Notes under the pieces: model-generated | Told to the model about the DNA's origin: nothing | Databases searched by the model: none | The model's input: only the letters and a program-made list of their open reading frames with translations | Part shown: one piece after another, positions 5,476-31,289 of the stretch | Position numbering within the stretch: the first letter of the stretch is position 1 | Layout of the letters: the number at the start of each line of letters is the position of its first letter | DNA from: a virus | Lineage: Duplodnaviria; Heunggongvirae; Uroviricota; Caudoviricetes | IMG/VR virus record: IMGVR_UViG_2645727978_000010 | Length of the DNA: 38,285 bases | Strand: one strand, 5' to 3' | Made by a program: the position numbers and the translations under genes

Positions 5476-5670
5476 ATGGATAATAAAGACAAAGCCTGGC
5501 TACTTGCTTTAGCTTTCAGCATCAGATCGCAGCGAGAAACAACTCATCAAGAATTTTTCTCGGAAATCGAGAATGCTGAGAATGAGTTTTTGTCACTACT
5601 CAATGAACGTGATGCTAAAAAAAGCGCCGATTCACTTAAGGCTTGGGCGAAACTAGGCTCTTCAAAATAA
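5476..5670 (+). CDS. Hypothetical small protein (64 aa)
   Basis: Track ORF with ATG start and weak RBS; occupies the slot where Rac carries sieB but is far shorter; 3' end overlaps the convergent 72-aa ORF. Confidence 0.3.
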   Translation: MDNKDKAWLLALAFSIRSQRETTHQEFFSEIENAENEFLSLLNERDAKKSADSLKAWAKLGSSK

Positions 5671-5854
5671 TTGCTTCTGTAGCGGCATGAACAACTGTTT
5701 TTGCCGCCTCTTCAACTTCCTTGTCTGGACGACCAGCCTTTACTTTTTCTGCAATGACATCCAGCACAGTTGGAAGAACCTTGCTAATAAGCATGGCTGC
5801 CACATCTTTGCTGCACAATTGACCGTTAATAACAACCAGATCTTCACCAACCAT
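5636..5854 (-). CDS. Hypothetical small protein (72 aa)
   Basis: Track ORF 5636..5911 trimmed to internal ATG with AAGGGG RBS (rev-comp of 5855-5868); lies between repressor gene and kilR on the early-left strand. Confidence 0.35.
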   Translation of the reverse strand: MVGEDLVVINGQLCSKDVAAMLISKVLPTVLDVIAEKVKAGRPDKEVEEAAKTVVHAATEAIILKSLVSPKP

Positions 5855-6098
5855 CTTTTTTCCCCTTAACGCCGGGTGGCGGAACGTTTTATCTACTGCG
5901 CTTTGTATCAATCAACAACTGCCGTCATGTTCGTATGCCTCAGGCTGGCTACTTAGCCCTGTTCAGTGGCTGGATAACTCGAGGTATTGTCCTGCCGTTC
6001 TCTGGTGGGGCGTTGTTTGGATATGCTTATTAAACACAATGCGTTTTCTTATGTCAACACGATATGTGTTTTGTGGTGAGTGTCATATGATGATGGTA

Positions 6099-13324: not shown

Positions 13325-13507
13325 TGCGCGCTGAATGCGCAGGGTGAAAAATAACCATATATTTGATTATATACACAACAAAAAATAAAAGTCATTGTAC
13401 CTGCACATTAAACAATCAAATATACGGCGTGAAATAAATATTTTTCAGATTAATATTTTTGTCTCTATGTGGATATAACCGTTTGTACTTATAAACCTGG
13501 AGGCATC

Positions 13508-13720
13508 GTGGAAAAAATAAAGAGACTATTTAGTAGCAAATACGCAGTCATACGTCGTGATGACCTGTCAGTTATAGTCGAAATGGATTACTTCCCTGAA
13601 ACCCCAAAATCAATGATGTATCGTAATGGTCGAAAGGCAATTTTTTTACCGATGAGGGTAAGTGACATTATGGGAAATGATAAACTGCTGGATGAATTGC
13701 GAGTCAGAGCATCATGTTAG
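13508..13720 (+). CDS. Hypothetical small protein (70 aa, GTG start)
   Basis: Track ORF 13469..13720; GGAGG 13499-13503 precedes in-frame GTG 13508; AT-rich region. Confidence 0.3.
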   Translation: MEKIKRLFSSKYAVIRRDDLSVIVEMDYFPETPKSMMYRNGRKAIFLPMRVSDIMGNDKLLDELRVRASC

Positions 13721-13791
13721 TATTGGCATTAATTCTGGTATACTACATAACGGGCTGAACACCCATTCTACTGCGCCAGCGGAGAACTACG

Positions 13792-14391
13792 ATGGCGCAT
13801 ATACAACTGGTCAAACAAACCTCTTCCGGATTACTTCTCCCGGCGACGCCGGAGAGTTGCGATTTTTTGCATCAAATCAAAATAGGTGAGTGGATACACG
13901 CAGACTTTAAGCGTGTGCGTAACTACGCATTTCACAAGCGTTTTTTCAAACTCCTGCAACTGGGATTCGATTACTGGACTCCGAGCGGTGGGGTGATCAC
14001 GCCTCGAGAACGAGAACTGGTATCAGGCTTCGTTGAGTACCTGTGCGAATCAGTAGGTCGGGAACATACGCCAGCTCTGAGCGAAGCCGCAGAGCAATAT
14101 CTGAATACAGTTGCGACACGCAGAACCCGGGATACGGCATTGCTAAAGTCGTTTGAGGCTTTCCGCGAGTGGGTAACCATTCAGGCCGGATTTTACACCG
14201 AGCATATTTATCCAGACGGTAGCCGCGGGCGCAGGGCAAAATCTATCGCATTTGCGAACATGGACGAAACCGAGTTTCAGCAGGTTTATAAATCTGTACT
14301 GAATGTGCTGTGGAACTGGATCCTGTTCCGTAAATTTTCCTCTCCGGAGGAAGTCGAAAATGTGGCCGCGCAGCTACTGGAGTTTGCGTAA
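13792..14391 (+). CDS. Hypothetical phage protein (199 aa); nin-region, possibly YbcN/DUF1367-like
   Basis: Track ORF; stop overlaps start of ybcO-like gene (TAATG); family name from recollection only. Confidence 0.55.
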   Translation: MAHIQLVKQTSSGLLLPATPESCDFLHQIKIGEWIHADFKRVRNYAFHKRFFKLLQLGFDYWTPSGGVITPRERELVSGFVEYLCESVGREHTPALSEAAEQYLNTVATRRTRDTALLKSFEAFREWVTIQAGFYTEHIYPDGSRGRRAKSIAFANMDETEFQQVYKSVLNVLWNWILFRKFSSPEEVENVAAQLLEFA

Positions 14392-27070: not shown

Positions 27071-28216
27071 ATGGCACAGGGCTTGCCTGTATCAAACGTT
27101 GTTAATGTTGATGTGATCATGTCGCCGCGTGCAGCATCAGGGCGAAATTTTGGTGCATTACTCATTCTCGGCCCGTCCACAATCATTCCGGTAAGTGAGC
27201 GCATTCGCCGTTATTCTGCCGCGGAAGATATTGGAAAAGATTTTGGCGTGGAATCACCAGAATATAAGGCTGCGCAGGTGTTTTTCTCTCAATCACCGAA
27301 ACCTCAGGAGGTTTTTGTTGGTCGTTGGGTGAAAACGAAGGGGGACAGCGAACAGGCCACGCCTGAGACGCTGGAGCAGGCTGTGAATGCCATGCTTGAT
27401 TATACTTCATGGTATGGGCTGGGGATTGCAGACGATGAAGATATTCAGGATGCAGACTGGCTGAAAGTGGCTGCGGCGATCGAATCCTCTTCTGTAAGCC
27501 GTATTCTGGCGATTACGACAAGCGATGAGAAATGCCTGCAGACTGCATCCAGCGATGATTTGGCATCAAAACTGAAAACCGCCGGATATTCACGCAGTTT
27601 TATTCAGTATTCATCGGGTAATAAATACGCTGCGTTATCTGCATTTGGCCGGGCATTCACGGTTAATTTCAATGGCAGTAATACCGCGATTACGCTCAAG
27701 TTTAAGCAGGAGCCGGGTATCGGGTATGAAACACTGACAGTCAGCCAGGCATCGGCACTTGATGCAAAAAACTGCAATGTATTCGTGTACTACCAGAATG
27801 ATACGGCTATCCTCCAGCAGGGAGTGATGGCTAACGGCGATTTCTTTGATGAACGCCACGGCCTGGACTGGTTACAGAATTATGTGCAGACCAACCTCTA
27901 TAACCTGCTTTATACCAGCACCACGAAAGTTCCCCAGACTGAAGCCGGTATTACCCGACTGTTATCAAATGTTGAAAAATCACTGGATCAGGCCGTTCAG
28001 AATGGACTGATTGCTCCGGGCGTATGGAACGGGGGCGACCTTGGTCAGTTGTCATCAGGTGACACACTGCCCAAAGGTTATTACGTATACGCTCAGCCGC
28101 TGGATGAACAGGCTCAATCAGAACGTGAAGCCCGTAAGGCTCCGGTGATTCAGGCTGCAATAAAACTTGCAGGCGCGGTTCATTACGCTGACGTACAGAT
28201 TAACGTTGTTCGCTAA
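27071..28216 (+). CDS. Tail sheath protein (381 aa), putative
   Basis: Track ORF; largest gene immediately upstream of tube/chaperone/tape-measure block. Confidence 0.65.
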
Positions 28217-28226
28217 GGGGAAGTGA

Positions 28227-28667
28227 ATGTCTACCTATTCTTTTATGGATGTCACTGCGACGCTGACCGGGCCGACAGGTTCGATTGACCTCGGGTACGG
28301 TTCGGCAAGTTCTGAAGAGGGGATTGTGGTTGCGATGGGCGGTCCTAAAAACACCATGACCATCGGTGCTGATGGCGAAGTGATGCACAGTCTCCATGCA
28401 GATAAAAGCGGGACGATTACCGTTAACCTTCTGAAGACATCACCGACAAATAAAAAATTGTCGCTGGCGTATAACGCACAGAGCCAGTCTTCTGCCACAT
28501 GGGGGAATAACGTTATCGTGATCCGCAACAAGGTCAGCGGCGACATCATCACGGCACGCAGTGTTGCGTTCCAGAAACAACCGGATAACGCCAACGCTAA
28601 AACCGGTAATACGATGCCGTGGGTGTTTGACTGCGGCAAGATTGACCAGGTTCTCGGGGAGTTTTAA
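28227..28667 (+). CDS. Tail tube protein (146 aa), putative
   Basis: Track ORF; between sheath and tail assembly chaperone. Confidence 0.6.
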   Translation: MSTYSFMDVTATLTGPTGSIDLGYGSASSEEGIVVAMGGPKNTMTIGADGEVMHSLHADKSGTITVNLLKTSPTNKKLSLAYNAQSQSSATWGNNVIVIRNKVSGDIITARSVAFQKQPDNANAKTGNTMPWVFDCGKIDQVLGEF

Positions 28668-28670
28668 TGC

Positions 28671-29123
28671 ATGGAATTCGAAATTAAAGGCGTGAAATAT
28701 CGCACGGCAAAACTCAGCGTTTTTGACCAGCTGAAAGTGACCCGCAAACTTCTGCCGGTGCTGGCAGGAATGATGTCAGATTTCGGGAGTATTCGCTCCC
28801 GTTTGCCTGCTGACGGCAAAATCGACACCGTGAAATTCGAACAGTTAAAACCGGTGTTTGAAACCATGCTCCCGCGTATCGCTGAGGAACTGTCTTCCCT
28901 GACCGAAGATGACACCGATGCGATTATTCATCCCTGTCTTGCGGTGGTATCGCGGCGTCATATGGACGGATGGGTGCCGGTATTTACCCAGGGCGAACTG
29001 ATGTTTGATGATATTGACTTGCTGGTCATGCTGCAGCTGGTGGCGCGGGTGGTCGCCGATTCGCTGGGAAATTTTTTGCCTACACCCCTTACCAGCACGA
29101 CGCAGAGCCTGCAACAGGGCTGA
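28671..29123 (+). CDS. Tail assembly chaperone (150 aa), short isoform
   Basis: Track ORF; directly upstream of tape measure gene; contains slippery heptamer near its 3' end. Confidence 0.6.
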   Translation: MEFEIKGVKYRTAKLSVFDQLKVTRKLLPVLAGMMSDFGSIRSRLPADGKIDTVKFEQLKPVFETMLPRIAEELSSLTEDDTDAIIHPCLAVVSRRHMDGWVPVFTQGELMFDDIDLLVMLQLVARVVADSLGNFLPTPLTSTTQSLQQG

Positions 29124-29311
29124 CGTTTAACAGCCTGCCGGACGGGCTGTCCTACCTTCTCAATCCGGTTGACGCCGGGTTAATTCCTTATACAGCACTT
29201 AAAGATGGCTCTGTCGATTTGTATGACATTGCTCTCTTGAATGACCATCTGGCGGTAAAAGCGGATAACCAGCGACGCATTGAGAAATGGAGAGAGGATA
29301 ATGAACGCTGA
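28671..29311 (+). CDS. Tail assembly chaperone, predicted -1 frameshift-extended isoform
   Basis: Slippery heptamer G_GGA_AAT at 29066-29072 followed by T-run; -1 frame open for 80 codons from 29072 to TGA 29309-29311, overlapping the tape measure start. Confidence 0.5.
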
Positions 29312-31289
29312 AACTATTAAAGATTTCCTCGTCTCGCTTGGCTTCAGTGTGGATGATGCAGGAGCGAAAAAGTTCGGTTCTGTCCTCGCCGGTACAACTG
29401 CAAATGTCATCAAAATGGGGCTGGCTGTTGAAGGAGCTGCGTTGTCCGTGGTGGCCTTCACGGCTAAGATCGCCTCCGGCCTGGATAATCTTTACTGGGC
29501 GTCACAGCGCACCGGCGCGACAGTCCAGGGAATTCAGTCTATTGGCTATGCGGTTTCGCAGGTTGGCGGCAGCGTGGACGCTGCGCGATCTTCTCTGGAA
29601 AGCCTATCCCGGTTTATTCGTAACAATCCCGGTGCAGAAGGCTTTCTGAATCGCCTGGGCGTACAGACCCGTGATGCCAGCGGTAACATGCGTGACATGG
29701 CCGCTATTTTTACGGGCGTTGGACAGAAACTCAGCAGCATGCCGTATTACCGGGCTAACCAGTATGCGCAGATGCTGGGCATTGACGAAAATACCCTTAT
29801 GGCGATGCGCCGGGGTGTGGGTGGCTTCTCCGGGCAGTACAGCGCAATGGCGAAAGCTATCGGCTTCAATGCTGACGAGGCGGCCAGAAGCTCCAACAAA
29901 TTTATGACCTCCCTGCGTGAGTTTGGCGCGATGGCAGGCATGGCCCGTGACAAAATCGGCTCTAATCTTGCGGGGGGGCTTGCGGGTTCGCTGGACACCC
30001 TGCGCCGCCATATCCTGGACAACTTCCCTCGTATCGAGCAGACCCTGACGAAAGCCATAAAAGGCATTCTGGCGCTCGGGGATATTATCGGGCGGCTGTT
30101 CTTCAGACTGATTGAGGGGACATCAGGCCTTATCACCTGGTGGCAATCGCTGGATAAGCAAACGCGGGAGTTGATCTCGCTGTTTGGCGCACTGACGATT
30201 GCGCTGCGCATTCTGAACAGTACGTTCTGGATGTCGCCGATTGGCCTCATTACCGCGCTGGCGGCGGGTATTGCCCTCCTGTGGGAGGACTATCAGACCT
30301 GGAAGGAAGGCGGCGACAGCCTGATTGACTGGGGCAAGTGGAAACCGGAGGTCGATGCCGCGCTGAAGATGGTTCGTGACCTTAAAACGACCGTTAACGA
30401 CCTGGTGAAAGCGCTGGCGAAACTGCTCAATATTGACCCCAAATCATGGTCCCTGAAGTGGGATTTCAGCAACTTCATCGACCAGATGGGCGAATTCAGC
30501 AAAATGCTGAACATGATCGCCGACCTGCTCAACGCTATCAAAGATGGCCGCTGGGCTGATGCCGTCAGCATCGGCAAACAGATACTTAATCAGGGCAGCG
30601 AAAATCCGTCAGCGATGCCGATGGTTACAGACAGCGCTAACAGTACTGCCGACTGGATTAAAGAGCACTGGGGATTCGATCCCCGCAGTGTGGGCCGGAC
30701 GGTACGCGGCTGGTTTGGTGATGATGAGCCGGAACAACATGCACAGGCTACGAAACGAGGAGAACGGAATAACAATCCGGGAAACCTTAATTTTGCTGGT
30801 CAGGCAGGGGCTTCTCTTGAACGCCCGGGCGGGCGATTTGCCAGATTTGAAACTGCTTTTGATGGATTACGGGCTCTTGCTCGTCAGTTAATGCTGTACG
30901 CCGGACGGGGAATAAACAGTGTGGAGAAAATTATCTCTACCTGGGCACCTGCGTCTGATAATAACAACACAACTGCGTATATCAGGGCTGTATCGCAACG
31001 ACTGGGAGTGGATCCCCGGGCTGCCCTGAATATGAGCGATCCGCAAACCATGTCAGCATTGATGAGCAGCATTATCCAGCATGAGAATGGAAGAAATATC
31101 TATTCTCGGGAGCTGATTAATAAGGCTGCCGTGGCGGGAATTAGTGGCAAAGTGACAGAGGTTAACCAGCAAAATACCTACCACATTTACGGTGGTGGAG
31201 ATCCGCACGCTGTCGGTAATGAGGTTGCACGTCGGCAACAGTCTGCAAATGCTCAGGTCATGCGAAGTAATCAGGTGAGGGTGGGTTAG
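29301..31289 (+). CDS. Tail tape measure protein (662 aa)
   Basis: Track ORF 29280..31289 trimmed to ATG 29301 (GGAGAGAGGA RBS); long Ala/Gly-rich helical protein with internal hydrophobic segments; follows chaperone. Confidence 0.8.
   Translation: MNAETIKDFLVSLGFSVDDAGAKKFGSVLAGTTANVIKMGLAVEGAALSVVAFTAKIASGLDNLYWASQRTGATVQGIQSIGYAVSQVGGSVDAARSSLESLSRFIRNNPGAEGFLNRLGVQTRDASGNMRDMAAIFTGVGQKLSSMPYYRANQYAQMLGIDENTLMAMRRGVGGFSGQYSAMAKAIGFNADEAARSSNKFMTSLREFGAMAGMARDKIGSNLAGGLAGSLDTLRRHILDNFPRIEQTLTKAIKGILALGDIIGRLFFRLIEGTSGLITWWQSLDKQTRELISLFGALTIALRILNSTFWMSPIGLITALAAGIALLWEDYQTWKEGGDSLIDWGKWKPEVDAALKMVRDLKTTVNDLVKALAKLLNIDPKSWSLKWDFSNFIDQMGEFSKMLNMIADLLNAIKDGRWADAVSIGKQILNQGSENPSAMPMVTDSANSTADWIKEHWGFDPRSVGRTVRGWFGDDEPEQHAQATKRGERNNNPGNLNFAGQAGASLERPGGRFARFETAFDGLRALARQLMLYAGRGINSVEKIISTWAPASDNNNTTAYIRAVSQRLGVDPRAALNMSDPQTMSALMSSIIQHENGRNIYSRELINKAAVAGISGKVTEVNQQNTYHIYGGGDPHAVGNEVARRQQSANAQVMRSNQVRVG

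What the first reader, a model, noticed from the sequence alone, without database searches (positions are those of the whole stretch)
29066..29311. Programmed -1 frameshift signal in the tail assembly chaperone gene
A canonical slippery heptamer G_GGA_AAT (29066-29072) is followed by a T-run, and the -1 frame then stays open for 80 codons, ending at TGA 29309-29311 across the tape measure start. This matches the conserved G/GT-type chaperone frameshift and independently supports the tail-gene assignments.
Basis: partly seen in the sequence, partly recalled or inferred. Interest (0 to 1): 0.45.

Follow-up and report, generated by a model that had tools for sequence, protein, structure and literature searches.

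The report
Tail chaperone -1 frameshift site
An E. coli prophage tail-assembly chaperone gene carries a conserved slippery run that lets a minority of ribosomes slip back one base and add an 79-residue extension; this is the ordinary, well-known phage trick for making two chaperone forms, here in a gene family where most databases mis-annotate it as two genes.

Summary
G_GGA_AAT sits at 29066-29072 in X_XXY_YYZ phase in a 150-aa tail assembly chaperone gene (28671-29123). The -1 frame is open for 81 codons to TGA 29309-29311, overlapping the tape-measure ATG at 29301.

The interpretation (lambda G/GT- or P2 E/E+E'-type programmed -1 frameshift) is strongly supported:
- The extension is a curated domain (DUF6889) with no conserved start codon.
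- It lies in the -1 frame in 69 of 70 loci from different species, and the exception has the same junction.
- Seven distant relatives encode the same two domains as one in-frame ORF. The two whose DNA I read have no slippery run.

Refinements:
- The signal is a 13-nt run, G_GGA_AAT_TTT_TTG, forming three overlapping heptamers.
T_TTT_TTN (the P2 T6G type) is kept in 79 of 80 genes, and A_AAU_UUU is the most efficient of the three in published E. coli assays.
- No conserved downstream RNA structure exists.
- A conserved upstream Shine-Dalgarno-like element (GGGUGGUC, 29047-29054) exceeds what the protein sequence requires.

This is a new member of a known kind. Klebsiella phage Mulock already annotates the joined product. 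Interest is low to moderate.

The parts
27071..28216 (+). Tail sheath gene (context)
   Evidence: Pfam DUF3383, E 1e-100. The homolog is annotated as tail sheath in SEN34 and as E217_gp31_N.
28227..28667 (+). Tail tube gene (context)
   Evidence: Pfam KPP10_Orf10 / DUF3277, E 9e-61. Labelled Phage_Tube_PhiTE.
28671..29123 (+). Tail assembly chaperone, zero-frame product 'G' (150 aa)
   Evidence: ORF. Pfam Phage_TAC_15, E 4.9e-31. PHROG 1688 'tail assembly chaperone', E 3.6e-65. PGAP calls it 'phage tail assembly chaperone'.
29047..29054 (+). Upstream Shine-Dalgarno-like element GGGTGGTC; inferred stimulator that pairs with the 16S 3' tail GAUCACC(U)
   Evidence: The strongest anti-SD pairing in the whole gene, averaged over 80 genes: -9.7 kcal/mol against -2.0 +/- 1.4. 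Arg126 is CGG in 50 of 70 Arg codons, against 8% background. A synonymous-resampling control gave -10.1 observed against -6.0 +/- 0.24. [quoted passage not shown] Function is inferred, not shown.
29066..29072 (+).
   Evidence: In phase. Present in 69 of 80 genes. Published E. coli efficiency is 0.069 / 0.112 / 1.05%.
29069..29075 (+). Slippery heptamer 2, A_AAT_TTT
   Evidence: In phase. Present in 73 of 80 genes. Belongs to the high-efficiency E. coli class H_HHU_UUY, measured at 0.070 / 0.355 / 11.4%.
29072..29078 (+). Slippery heptamer 3, T_TTT_TTG (T6G, as in P2 E/E+E')
   Evidence: In phase. T_TTT_TTN is present in 78-79 of 80 genes and is the only heptamer left in 6 loci. The P2 T6G precedent is summarised in PMC3931495.
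29066..29311 (+). -1 frame extension 'T' (81 codons plus TGA). The DUF6889 domain is encoded at about 29186-29302.
   Evidence: Translation. Pfam DUF6889, E 1.3e-20, residues 41-79. PHROG 4364. The first canonical start in this frame is TTG 29219, which lies inside the domain. In 80 genes the -1 frame has no stop, and it is better conserved than the zero frame (0.57 against 0.33).
28671..29311 (+). Predicted frameshift product G-T, 213 aa. Residues 1-134 come from the zero frame, then FFAYTP... (or FLAYTP... if the slip is on T_TTT_TTG).
   Evidence: It is collinear, without a gap, with in-frame homologs P0169, P0211, P0263, P0270, P0271, P0278 and P0251. It is 99% identical to P0001, which comes from a T7 variant contig.
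29301..31289 (+). Tape measure gene. Its start overlaps the end of the -1 ORF by 11 nt, and its RBS GAGAGAGGA (29290-29298) lies inside the T coding sequence.
   Evidence: ORF. Weak Pfam PhageMin_Tail hit. Homologs are annotated as tape measure or lytic transglycosylase. The PGAP start is at window 29301.

Best explanation
The window is an E. coli prophage of a temperate myovirus.

Most ribosomes translating the chaperone gene (28671-29123) terminate at TGA 29121-29123 and make the 150-aa chaperone 'G'. A minority slip back one nucleotide on the 13-nt run G_GGA_AAU_UUU_UUG (29066-29078). They continue in the -1 frame to TGA 29309-29311 and make a 213-aa 'G-T' protein whose C-terminal part carries DUF6889.

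By analogy with lambda gpG/gpGT and P2 gpE/gpE+E', many copies of G and a few of G-T coat the tape-measure protein. The T part then recruits the tube protein so that the tail polymerises to the right length. Neither chaperone form ends up in the virion.

The slip most likely happens with tRNA-Phe on the first UUU codon. That codon would be in the A site for A_AAU_UUU, or in the P site for U_UUU_UUG. It is probably helped by pairing of the upstream GGGUGGUC (29047-29054) with the 3' end of 16S rRNA, and not by a downstream RNA structure.

Shown here: the sequence anatomy, the domain identities, the lack of an independent start, conservation of the -1 arrangement and of the slippery run, the excess anti-SD complementarity, and the existence of in-frame fusions elsewhere.

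Inferred: that the fusion protein is made, its abundance, which heptamer is used, that the SD-like element stimulates, and the roles of G and G-T in assembly.
For: (1) Position. The gene order is sheath (DUF3383), tube (DUF3277), TAC (Phage_TAC_15), -1 ORF, tape measure, Dit-like, plug, hub.

(2) The -1 ORF is real coding sequence: DUF6889 at E 1.3e-20 and PHROG 4364.

(3) It has no start of its own.
- The first ATG/GTG/TTG in frame is TTG 29219, inside the domain.
- PGAP has to use CTG 29147, which is GAA or GAG in 7 of 13 orthologs.
- Public gene calls for the extension range from 46 to 78 aa.

(4) The frame change is confined. Four orthologs have a -1-frame stop one codon before GGG, and the zero frame stops 49-58 nt later.

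(5) Conservation.
- T is in the -1 frame in 69 of 70 loci taken from one genome per species, at 35-86% identity. The exception, L047, has the same junction plus a later indel.
- All 13 lineages at 70% identity have an in-phase heptamer at this position.

(6) Nucleotide-level selection. GGA is used in 73 of 79 (background 10%), AAT in 74 of 74 (35%), TTT in 79 of 79 (49%) and TTG in 69 of 70 (11%). When residue 134 changes, its codon still ends in T.

(7) After the run, the -1 frame is better conserved than the zero frame (0.57 against 0.33). The zero-frame tail varies in length.

(8) Seven distant cluster representatives are single in-frame TAC_15+DUF6889 ORFs, collinear across the junction. 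The two whose DNA was read have no in-phase heptamer and encode the junction as TTC TTC or TAC TTC.

(9) One extra T in the run (T7, L014) gives a 213-aa ORF with both domains.

(10) Phage Mulock (59% aa identity) is deposited with a joined 'tape measure chaperone frameshift product'.

(11) The upstream SD-like signal is supported.

(12) Literature. The lambda G/GT mechanism and 30:1 ratio, and the higher efficiency in P2, are from PMC5009743. The P2 T6G run, with E' overlapping gene T and lacking an RBS, is from PMC3931495. Heptamer efficiencies in E. coli are from PMC4066793.
Against: - No protein-level evidence for the fusion exists here or, to my knowledge, for any member of this family.
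- Each of the three heptamers alone gave only 0.07-0.12% frameshifting in E. coli without stimulators, so useful efficiency depends on context that I could only infer.
- No conserved downstream structure was found and no Rfam frameshift element matched.
- The SD-like statistics are not corrected for phylogeny. There are only 13 lineages at 70% identity and 4 at 60%. Two lineages have weak complementarity (L062 at -6.6, L080 at -5.5 kcal/mol).
- The near-identity of the 32-nt upstream block among close relatives could partly reflect recombination, since there is a mosaic junction at L153.
- The structure prediction was too poor (pLDDT 48.7) to support the chaperone fold independently.
Confidence: 0.9

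Rival explanations
1. The slip occurs specifically, or mainly, on the reader's heptamer G_GGA_AAT (tRNA-Gly in the P site, tRNA-Asn in the A site), as in lambda's G_GGA_AAG. On this view the T-run is incidental.
For: It is in phase and present in 69 of 80 genes. GGA is strongly preferred (73 of 79 against 10% background). The SD-like GGTGG lies at the modal 14-nt spacing from it. In loci that keep only the T-run, the SD-like motif sits about 6 nt further downstream, which restores 13-15 nt. In Achromobacter L080 it is the only canonical heptamer.
Against: Ten of 80 genes have lost it and keep A_AAT_TTT and/or T_TTT_TTN. AAU to AAA re-pairing of tRNA-Asn is non-cognate. G_GGA_AAU gave 0.069 / 0.11 / 1.05% in E. 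coli and is over-represented in E. coli genes (z +6.85), meaning it is not avoided as shifty. The T-run is the most conserved element: 79 of 80, with TTT in 79 of 79 and TTG in 69 of 70. That would be unexplained if the run were incidental.
Confidence: 0.15
2. DUF6889 is a separate small gene translated by independent initiation, as PGAP and several phage records annotate it. No recoding occurs.
For: PGAP annotates a 54-aa 'DUF6889 family protein' from window 29147. Many records list 46-78-aa stand-alone proteins. Some orthologs have an in-frame ATG upstream of the domain.
Against: The window has no ATG, GTG or TTG before the domain. The PGAP start is CTG, has no properly spaced RBS, and is not conserved. 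Called starts are inconsistent between records. Amino-acid conservation in the -1 frame begins right at the slip run, upstream of every proposed start. In-frame fusions in distant relatives are collinear across the junction.
Confidence: 0.04
3. The frame change is made by RNA polymerase. Transcriptional slippage on the A3T6 run adds one nucleotide to a fraction of mRNAs, and these are then translated normally into G-T.
For: The site is a homopolymer run. One assembly carries T7 instead of T6, which shows the run is prone to indels at some level. Context-dependent slippage at short runs is known when a nascent hairpin lies immediately 5' (PMC5009743). The window can form a small hairpin at 29042-29057.
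Against: Efficient bacterial slippage needs about 9 A or T, and T6 is short. The upstream hairpin is not conserved: the consensus fold is empty and the MFE is at the 25th percentile of other windows. It also ends about 10 nt upstream of where the RNA-DNA hybrid would begin. What is conserved upstream is anti-SD complementarity through several different sequences. Distant members keep an in-phase heptamer without a long homopolymer: C_CCT_TTT in L079 and G_GGA_AAT with a broken T-run in L080. T6 is exact in 76 of 80 IMG/VR loci.
Confidence: 0.04
4. The overlap is a non-functional relic or a chance open frame in a decaying prophage.
For: Some related loci are decayed: L047 has a second indel and L061 is truncated.
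Against: There is a curated domain hit, conservation across 13 lineages and in isolated, viable phages (Mulock, SEN34, YP3, yong1, GZ7), and strong synonymous-site constraint.
Confidence: 0.01

Closest known systems
Bacteriophage lambda gpG / gpGT tail assembly chaperone frameshift (Levin 1993; Xu 2004, 2013, 2014; as reviewed in PMC5009743)
   Same: The gene lies between the major tail gene and the tape measure gene. A -1 shift near the 3' end of G gives a minor fusion product. The first heptamer differs from lambda's G_GGA_AAG only in its last base. The extension has no start of its own.
   Different: There is no detectable sequence relationship: only Phage_TAC_15 and DUF6889 hit, even at E <= 10. 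The phage has a contractile tail. The run has two further overlapping heptamers. G_GGA_AAU is about 40 times weaker than G_GGA_AAG in E. coli assays. The lambda-type cluster was scored 'no SD, structure present', whereas here it is SD-like present and no structure.
Bacteriophage P2 gpE / gpE+E' (Christie et al. 2002; summarised in PMC3931495)
   Same: It is a myovirus with the order sheath, tube, E, E', tape measure. E' is in the -1 frame, overlaps the start of the tape-measure gene and lacks an RBS. The slippery sequence is a T6G run, identical to 29072-29078.
   Different: There is no detectable sequence homology at the Pfam level. The GGGAAA prefix and the upstream SD-like element are not, to my knowledge, described for P2. 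I could not read the primary P2 paper.
Klebsiella phage Mulock CPT_Mulock_014/015 'tape measure chaperone' and 'frameshift product' (MN098327)
   Same: It is a true homolog (59% aa identity, about 70% nt). The run GGGAAATTTTTTG and the gene order are identical, and the depositors annotated a joined CDS.
   Different: This is annotation only. The genome announcement does not mention the frameshift, and there are no experiments. RefSeq/PGAP and most other phage records of the family do not join the ORFs.
E. coli dnaX gamma/tau and IS911-type -1 frameshift cassettes with an upstream Shine-Dalgarno-like stimulator
   Same: A heptamer is preceded by an internal SD-like sequence at a stimulatory distance. 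[quoted passage not shown]
   Different: Those cassettes also use a downstream hairpin or pseudoknot and an X_XXA_AAG heptamer. In dnaX the shifted product is the shorter one. Stimulation here is inferred, not measured.
In-frame TAC_15-DUF6889 proteins of distant relatives (P0169, P0211, P0251, P0263, P0270, P0271, P0278)
   Same: They have the same two domains in the same order and are collinear with the predicted G-T product across the junction.
   Different: They are encoded as one ORF without any slippery heptamer, in 60-65% GC contigs and in a different gene order. Presumably only the long form is made.

Membership tests
G/GT-type tail assembly chaperone frameshift (Xu et al. 2004 class) | The chaperone gene lies between the major tail (tube) gene and the tape-measure gene | tested here: met
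   Tube 28227-28667, TAC 28671-29123, tape measure 29301-31289.
G/GT-type tail assembly chaperone frameshift (Xu et al. 2004 class) | A second ORF overlaps the 3' end of the first in the -1 frame and lacks its own start codon and RBS | tested here: met
   The -1 frame is open from 29018 to 29311. The first canonical start is TTG 29219, inside the domain. No start is conserved in 13 orthologs.
G/GT-type tail assembly chaperone frameshift (Xu et al. 2004 class) | A slippery sequence lies in the correct phase within the overlap | tested here: met
   Three overlapping X_XXY_YYZ heptamers at 29066-29078. The permitted window is 49-58 nt in orthologs that have an upstream -1 stop.
G/GT-type tail assembly chaperone frameshift (Xu et al. 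2004 class) | The two-frame arrangement and the slip site are conserved among homologs | tested here: met
   69 of 70 loci are in the -1 frame. A heptamer is present in all 13 lineages. Codon bias at the site is shown.
G/GT-type tail assembly chaperone frameshift (Xu et al. 2004 class) | Both the short and the fusion protein are produced, with the fusion as a minor species | not testable with these tools
   This needs a Western blot, mass spectrometry or a reporter assay.
G/GT-type tail assembly chaperone frameshift (Xu et al. 2004 class) | Both products are required for tail assembly and are absent from virions | not testable with these tools
   This needs genetics and virion proteomics.
Pfam PF21822 Phage_TAC_15 | Profile match above the gathering score | tested here: met
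   108.3 bits against a cut-off of 22, E 4.9e-31. PHROG 1688 at E 3.6e-65.
Pfam PF21829 DUF6889 | Profile match above the gathering score | tested here: met
   73.3 bits against a cut-off of 23.9, E 1.3e-20, on the -1 frame translation.
Lambda gpG / gpT sequence families | Detectable sequence homology to the lambda chaperone families | tested here: not met
   A Pfam scan at E <= 10 returns only Phage_TAC_15 and DUF6889. NCBIfam returns nothing. The PDB sequence search returns nothing. The fold comparison was not informative because the model had pLDDT 48.7.
P2 gpE / gpE+E' | An in-phase T6G slippery run, and an E'-like ORF that overlaps the tape-measure start | tested here: met
   T_TTT_TTG at 29072-29078. 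The -1 ORF ends at 29311, 11 nt into the tape-measure gene. The P2 features are taken from PMC3931495.
P2 gpE / gpE+E' | Sequence homology to P2 E / E' | tested here: not met
   No P2-type family appears in the Pfam scan at E <= 10.
SD-stimulated -1 frameshift cassettes (dnaX / IS911 type) | [quoted passage not shown] | tested here: met
   GGTGG at 29048-29052 is 14 nt from heptamer 1 and 17 nt from heptamer 2, but 20 nt from heptamer 3. The criterion is met in 58 of 69, 62 of 73 and 32 of 78 loci respectively.
SD-stimulated -1 frameshift cassettes (dnaX / IS911 type) | The SD-like element measurably raises frameshifting | not testable with these tools
   The only evidence is indirect: excess anti-SD complementarity beyond the amino-acid constraint.
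SD-stimulated -1 frameshift cassettes (dnaX / IS911 type) | A downstream stimulatory hairpin or pseudoknot | tested here: not met
   Fold z-score is +0.34. The consensus fold is -4 kcal/mol with no covariation. Hairpins meeting the published criteria occur in 26 of 30 loci and in 26 of 30 control positions. There is no Rfam hit.

The most novel reading that the evidence does not exclude
This chaperone family may use a frameshift cassette of unusual design. It would combine a 13-nt run of three stacked heptamers (G_GGA_AAU_UUU_UUG), which gives the ribosome three consecutive chances to slip into the same frame, with an upstream anti-Shine-Dalgarno-pairing element and no downstream RNA structure. 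The position of the SD-like element would co-vary with whichever heptamer a lineage retains: GGUGG at about 14 nt from G_GGA_AAU, and GGAG or GGAGGA shifted about 6 nt downstream in the three lineages that keep only U_UUU_UUN. A conserved SD-type stimulator has not, to my knowledge, been described for phage tail-chaperone frameshifts. The two chaperone clusters in Sharma et al. 2014 were scored as lacking one.
Probability: 0.4. Interest if true: 0.35.

Novelty: new member of a known kind. Interest (0 to 1): 0.25.

Why it matters
**Annotation.** The module is present in 368 of 5,426 complete E. coli genomes and in many enterobacterial prophages and phages. Most records split it into a chaperone plus a spurious mini-gene. 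That mini-gene is named 'DUF6889 family protein', sometimes with a CTG start, or wrongly 'NTP pyrophosphohydrolase'. Recognising the frameshift assigns DUF6889 a role as the 'T' extension of a tail assembly chaperone and removes a mis-annotation that keeps being copied between records.

**Mechanism.** The family offers a natural series for studying how bacterial -1 frameshift efficiency is set without a downstream structure. The series runs from three heptamers to two to one, then to in-frame fusions with none, with an SD-like element that moves accordingly. This extends a well-understood phenomenon and does not reveal a new one.

Tried and rejected
A single-sequence fold of 29076-29175 gave z = +0.34. 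RNAalifold on 12 orthologs gave -4 kcal/mol with no compensatory pairs. Hairpins meeting the published criteria were equally frequent at control positions. Rejected.
- **Upstream nascent-RNA hairpin, as needed for transcriptional slippage.** There is no consensus structure and the MFE is unremarkable. Rejected.
- **Rfam scan of 28600-29500.** Only a chance miRNA hit at E 0.98.
- **Structure prediction of the fusion (P0001 with a 48-sequence alignment).** Mean pLDDT was 48.7 and pTM 0.28. I did not run fold searches because a low-confidence model gives meaningless matches.
- **PDB sequence search and NCBIfam.** No hits.
- **The primary P2 paper (Christie 2002).** It is not held, so I used the summary in PMC3931495. 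The Mulock genome announcement does not mention the frameshift.
- **P0001 as evidence for a natural in-frame fusion close to the window.** It comes from a single short-read assembly with T7 in place of T6. I treat it as a possible homopolymer error. It demonstrates only that one added base joins the domains.
- **Other in-phase heptamers near ORF ends in the window (about 5861 on the minus strand, and 13672 on the plus strand).** Checked and dismissed.
Full report
**1. The observation**

The + strand ORF 28671-29123 (150 aa) reads ...GAT TCG CTG GGA AAT TTT TTG CCT.... GGGAAAT at 29066-29072 is therefore in X_XXY_YYZ phase (G_GGA_AAT), and a T6 run follows at 29072-29077.

Translation from 29066 in the -1 frame gives 81 sense codons and then TGA at 29309-29311. 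The -1 frame opens at 29018. The next gene starts at ATG 29301, so the -1 ORF overlaps it by 11 nt.

They are G_GGA_AAT (29066-72), A_AAT_TTT (29069-75) and T_TTT_TTG (29072-78), and all three lead to the same -1 frame.

**2. More than chance**

All figures in this list are unless stated.
- In the window's 47 gene-like ORFs, in-phase heptamers occur once per 197 codons. About 0.10 are expected in a 19-codon window.
- A stacked triple occurs only here.
- -1-frame open runs inside genes have a median of 8 codons, and 0.1% reach 81.
- 2.5% of shuffles of the extension stay open.
- The -1 translation matches Pfam DUF6889 (E 1.3e-20, 73.3 bits against a cut-off of 23.9) and PHROG 4364. It is therefore coding sequence.

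**3. Context**

The neighbouring genes, all, are:

| Gene | Family |
|---|---|
| Sheath | DUF3383, E 1e-100 |
| Tube | KPP10_Orf10 / DUF3277 |
| Chaperone | Phage_TAC_15, E 5e-31 (also PHROG 1688 'tail assembly chaperone') |
| Tape measure, 662 aa | homologs annotated as tape measure or lytic transglycosylase |
| Downstream | Dit-like, Pam3_gp18 plug, E217_gp41-like hub |

The window is 100% identical to a prophage of E. coli 2011C-4251. The module occurs in 368 of 5,426 complete E. coli genomes, always on the chromosome. It also occurs in temperate myoviruses of Klebsiella, Salmonella, Yersinia, Hafnia and Citrobacter.

**4. No independent start for the extension**

- In the window, the first ATG, GTG or TTG in the -1 frame is TTG 29219, inside the DUF6889 domain.
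- PGAP annotates a 54-aa 'DUF6889 family protein' from 29147, which is a CTG. The aligned codon is GAA or GAG in 7 of 13 orthologs.
- Across databases the extension is called at 46-78 aa, named 'DUF6889 family protein' or, wrongly, 'NTP pyrophosphohydrolase'.
- In four orthologs a -1-frame stop lies one codon upstream of GGG. The zero frame ends 49-58 nt later. The frame change must therefore happen in that short interval, which contains the slippery run.

**5. Comparative evidence**

I scanned one genome per species with a TAC alignment (A2). That returned 71 loci at 35-86% identity, from Enterobacterales plus an Achromobacter and a Methylophilaceae MAG.

- With HMMs built from 13 orthologs, the extension lies in the -1 frame relative to the chaperone in 69 of 70 complete loci.
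- The exception, L047, has the same junction and run but a second indel further on. L061 is a truncated remnant.
- After the run, the -1 frame is better conserved than the zero frame (mean pairwise identity 0.57 against 0.33). It has no stop in any of 80 genes. The zero-frame tail varies from 14 to 20 codons.

Codon choice at the site departs sharply from the rest of the same genes:

| Position | Codon at the site | Background |
|---|---|---|
| Gly133 | GGA in 73 of 79 | 10% |
| Asn134 | AAT in 74 of 74 | 35% |
| Phe135 | TTT in 79 of 79 | 49% |
| Leu136 | TTG in 69 of 70 | 11% |

When residue 134 is Ser, Gly, Asp or Pro, the codon still ends in T.

**6. In-frame relatives as a natural control**

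An exhaustive search of 1.84 billion cluster representatives with the fusion proxy P0001 found seven distant representatives of 191-210 aa, at 29-34% identity. Each is a single ORF carrying both TAC_15 and DUF6889, and each aligns without a gap across the junction. Examples are DSLGNFF-AYTP against ASLARFF-TYAP, TLQPFF-SRKT and DNLHGYF-SYTP.

The DNA of two of them (L166 and L167, 60-65% GC) contains no in-phase heptamer anywhere in the gene. It encodes the junction as CCG TTC TTC TCC or GGC TAC TTC TCG.

The G-T polypeptide is thus a real protein architecture. In the loci examined, the slippery run is present where the two domains lie in different frames and absent from the two in-frame genes whose DNA I read.

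P0001 itself is 99% identical to the predicted product. It comes from one short-read assembly with T7 in place of T6. I treat it as a possible homopolymer error.

**7. Which heptamer**

Published measurements in E. coli (Sharma et al. 2014, PMC4066793, Table S3):

| Motif | No stimulator | IS911 stimulators | IS3 pseudoknot | Occurrence in E. coli genes |
|---|---|---|---|---|
| GGGAAAU | 0.069% | 0.112% | 1.05% | not avoided (z +6.85) |
| AAAUUUU | 0.070% | 0.355% | 11.4% | avoided (z -9.1) |
| UUUUUUG | 0.118% | 0.247% | 0.77% | neutral (z +0.14) |

[quoted passage not shown] H_HHU_UUY is one of the best classes.

Natural variation points the same way:
- 68 of 80 genes have all three heptamers.
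- 4 have lost G_GGA_AAT and keep the other two.
- 6, from three separate lineages, keep only T_TTT_TTN.
- One has only C_CCT_TTT.
- One, Achromobacter, has only G_GGA_AAT.

T_TTT_TTN is present in 78-79 of 80 genes. It is identical to the T6G run that P2 uses for E/E+E' (PMC3931495).

The products would be ...LGNFFAYTP... for a slip on heptamer 1 or 2, or for a P-site slip on U_UUU. A tandem slip on U_UUU_UUG would give ...LGNFLAYTP....

**8. Stimulators**

There is no conserved downstream structure:
- The fold z-score is +0.34.
- The consensus fold is -4 kcal/mol without covariation.
- Hairpins meeting the published criteria occur in 26 of 30 loci and in 26 of 30 control positions.
- No Rfam family matches.

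Nucleotide conservation across the gene instead peaks at 29028-29078. Several results point to an upstream SD-like element.
- Averaged over 80 genes, the strongest complementarity to the 16S 3' tail anywhere in the gene is a 9-mer ending 12 nt upstream of GGA. In the window this is GGGUGGUCG at 29047-29055, at -12.2 kcal/mol. The mean is -9.7 against a gene-wide -2.0 +/- 1.4.
- This is not simply amino-acid conservation. Arg126 is CGG in 50 of 70 Arg codons, against 8% background.
- Lineages with other residues still carry AGGUGAUU, GAGUGAUC, AAGGUGAUU, GGAGGA or GGUGGGUGA.
- Resampling synonymous codons gives -6.0 +/- 0.24, against -10.1 observed. No other position in the gene is stronger than -5.9.

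| Heptamer | Loci with SD-like motif in range |
|---|---|
| 1 | 58 of 69 |
| 2 | 62 of 73 |
| 3 | 32 of 78 |

All six T-run-only loci carry GGAG or GGAGGA about 6 nt further downstream, which restores 13-15 nt.

Caveats: the loci fall into only 13 lineages at 70% identity. Eleven of the 13 show -7 kcal/mol or better. The statistics are not corrected for phylogeny. Stimulation is inferred.

Sharma's two phage chaperone clusters were scored 'SD no / structure yes', and their screen did not include the three motifs found here.

**9. Rivals**

- *Independent initiation.* The absence of a conserved start, and conservation of the -1 frame from the slip run onward, argue against it.
- *Transcriptional slippage.* This is unlikely for four reasons. 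T6 is shorter than the roughly 9-nt runs that slip efficiently (PMC5009743). The upstream hairpin is not conserved. Distant members keep an in-phase heptamer without a long homopolymer. T6 is exact in 76 of 80 IMG/VR loci.
- *A decayed relic.* The conservation data and the presence of the arrangement in viable phages exclude it.

**10. Comparison with what is known, and verdict**

Functionally this is the lambda G/GT and P2 E/E+E' arrangement (PMC5009743; PMC3931495). It shares gene order, the T6G run and the overlap with the tape-measure start with P2. It shares the GGGAAA prefix with lambda.

It is not a sequence member of either family. It belongs to Phage_TAC_15 plus DUF6889.

A homolog, Klebsiella phage Mulock, is already deposited with a joined 'frameshift product', although its paper does not discuss it. 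No member has experimental evidence that I could find.

- Verdict: a real, ordinary programmed -1 frameshift site.
- Novelty: a new member of a known kind.
- Confidence: 0.9 that a G-T fusion is made by ribosomal slippage within 29066-29078.
- Interest: 0.25. The value is mostly a correction to annotation. The stacked heptamers and the upstream SD-like element are a modest mechanistic point worth one reporter experiment.

Noticed in passing
L153 (also L154-L159), IMG/VR loci; homologous to window 29036-29110: These prophages are 96-99% identical to the window's chaperone up to residue 136, which is exactly through GGGAAATTTTTTG. They then switch to the sequence of a different lineage (Omnitron-like GCAAGGACTCCC...). 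A mosaic recombination junction therefore coincides with the highly conserved SD-like and slip block. Recombination could contribute to the near-identity of that block among close relatives.
   Followed up: partly
window 29147-29311 and homologs (P0122, P0124, P0125, P0127, P0135, P0145; L006, L008): In many NCBI and phage records the -1 extension is named 'NTP pyrophosphohydrolase'. No such domain is detectable; only DUF6889 hits. It looks like a mis-annotation copied between records. PGAP's version starts at a CTG codon.
   Followed up: partly
L014 1897-1910 (Logan SRR23924998 contig), homologous to window 29066-29078: One assembly has T7 in place of T6. This fuses chaperone and extension into a 213-aa in-frame ORF (P0001; its 90% cluster lists 16 member sequences). 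It could be a homopolymer sequencing error, or a real GT-only mutant prophage.
   Followed up: partly
L166 2501-3133 and L167 1038-1664: Distant in-frame TAC_15-DUF6889 genes sit in a different gene order. In L167 the fused gene is followed directly by Dit-like, Pam3_gp18, a hub and a sheath initiator, with no tape-measure gene in between. In L166 it follows a 674-aa gene and is then followed by genes on the opposite strand. How these phages obtain a short chaperone form, if they need one, is open.
   Followed up: no
L010 (OM284015 'Elizabethkingia phage EKP1') and L026 (contig labelled Chryseobacterium sp. 18061): Two records attributed to Flavobacteriia hosts carry a tail module about 70% identical in DNA, or 69% in protein, to this enterobacterial prophage, including the same slip run. 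The similarity looks too high for such distant hosts. It suggests contamination or a wrong host assignment.
   Followed up: no
L047 about 1869-2113; L061 about 1851-2670: L047 has a second frame change inside the extension. L061 has the extension truncated after about 54 residues and fused to unrelated sequence. These are probably decaying prophages or assembly errors.
   Followed up: partly
window about 5861 (- strand) and 13672 (+ strand): There are other in-phase slippery heptamers. A_AAA_AAG followed by a second heptamer lies inside a TTG-started 91-aa ORF (5636-5911, minus strand), probably upstream of its real ATG. G_GGA_AAT lies 16 codons before the end of ORF 13469-13720, but the overlapping ORF 13662-13889 is in the +1 frame, not the -1 frame. 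Neither looks like a recoding site.
   Followed up: partly
window 29290-29311: The conserved C-terminus of the extension (…KWREDNER*) is encoded by the same nucleotides as the tape-measure RBS (GAGAGAGGA) and start codon (ATGAACGCTGA). The sequence GA(T/C)AATGAACGCTGA recurs in many distant loci. Part of that amino-acid conservation may therefore reflect constraints of translational coupling.
   Followed up: no
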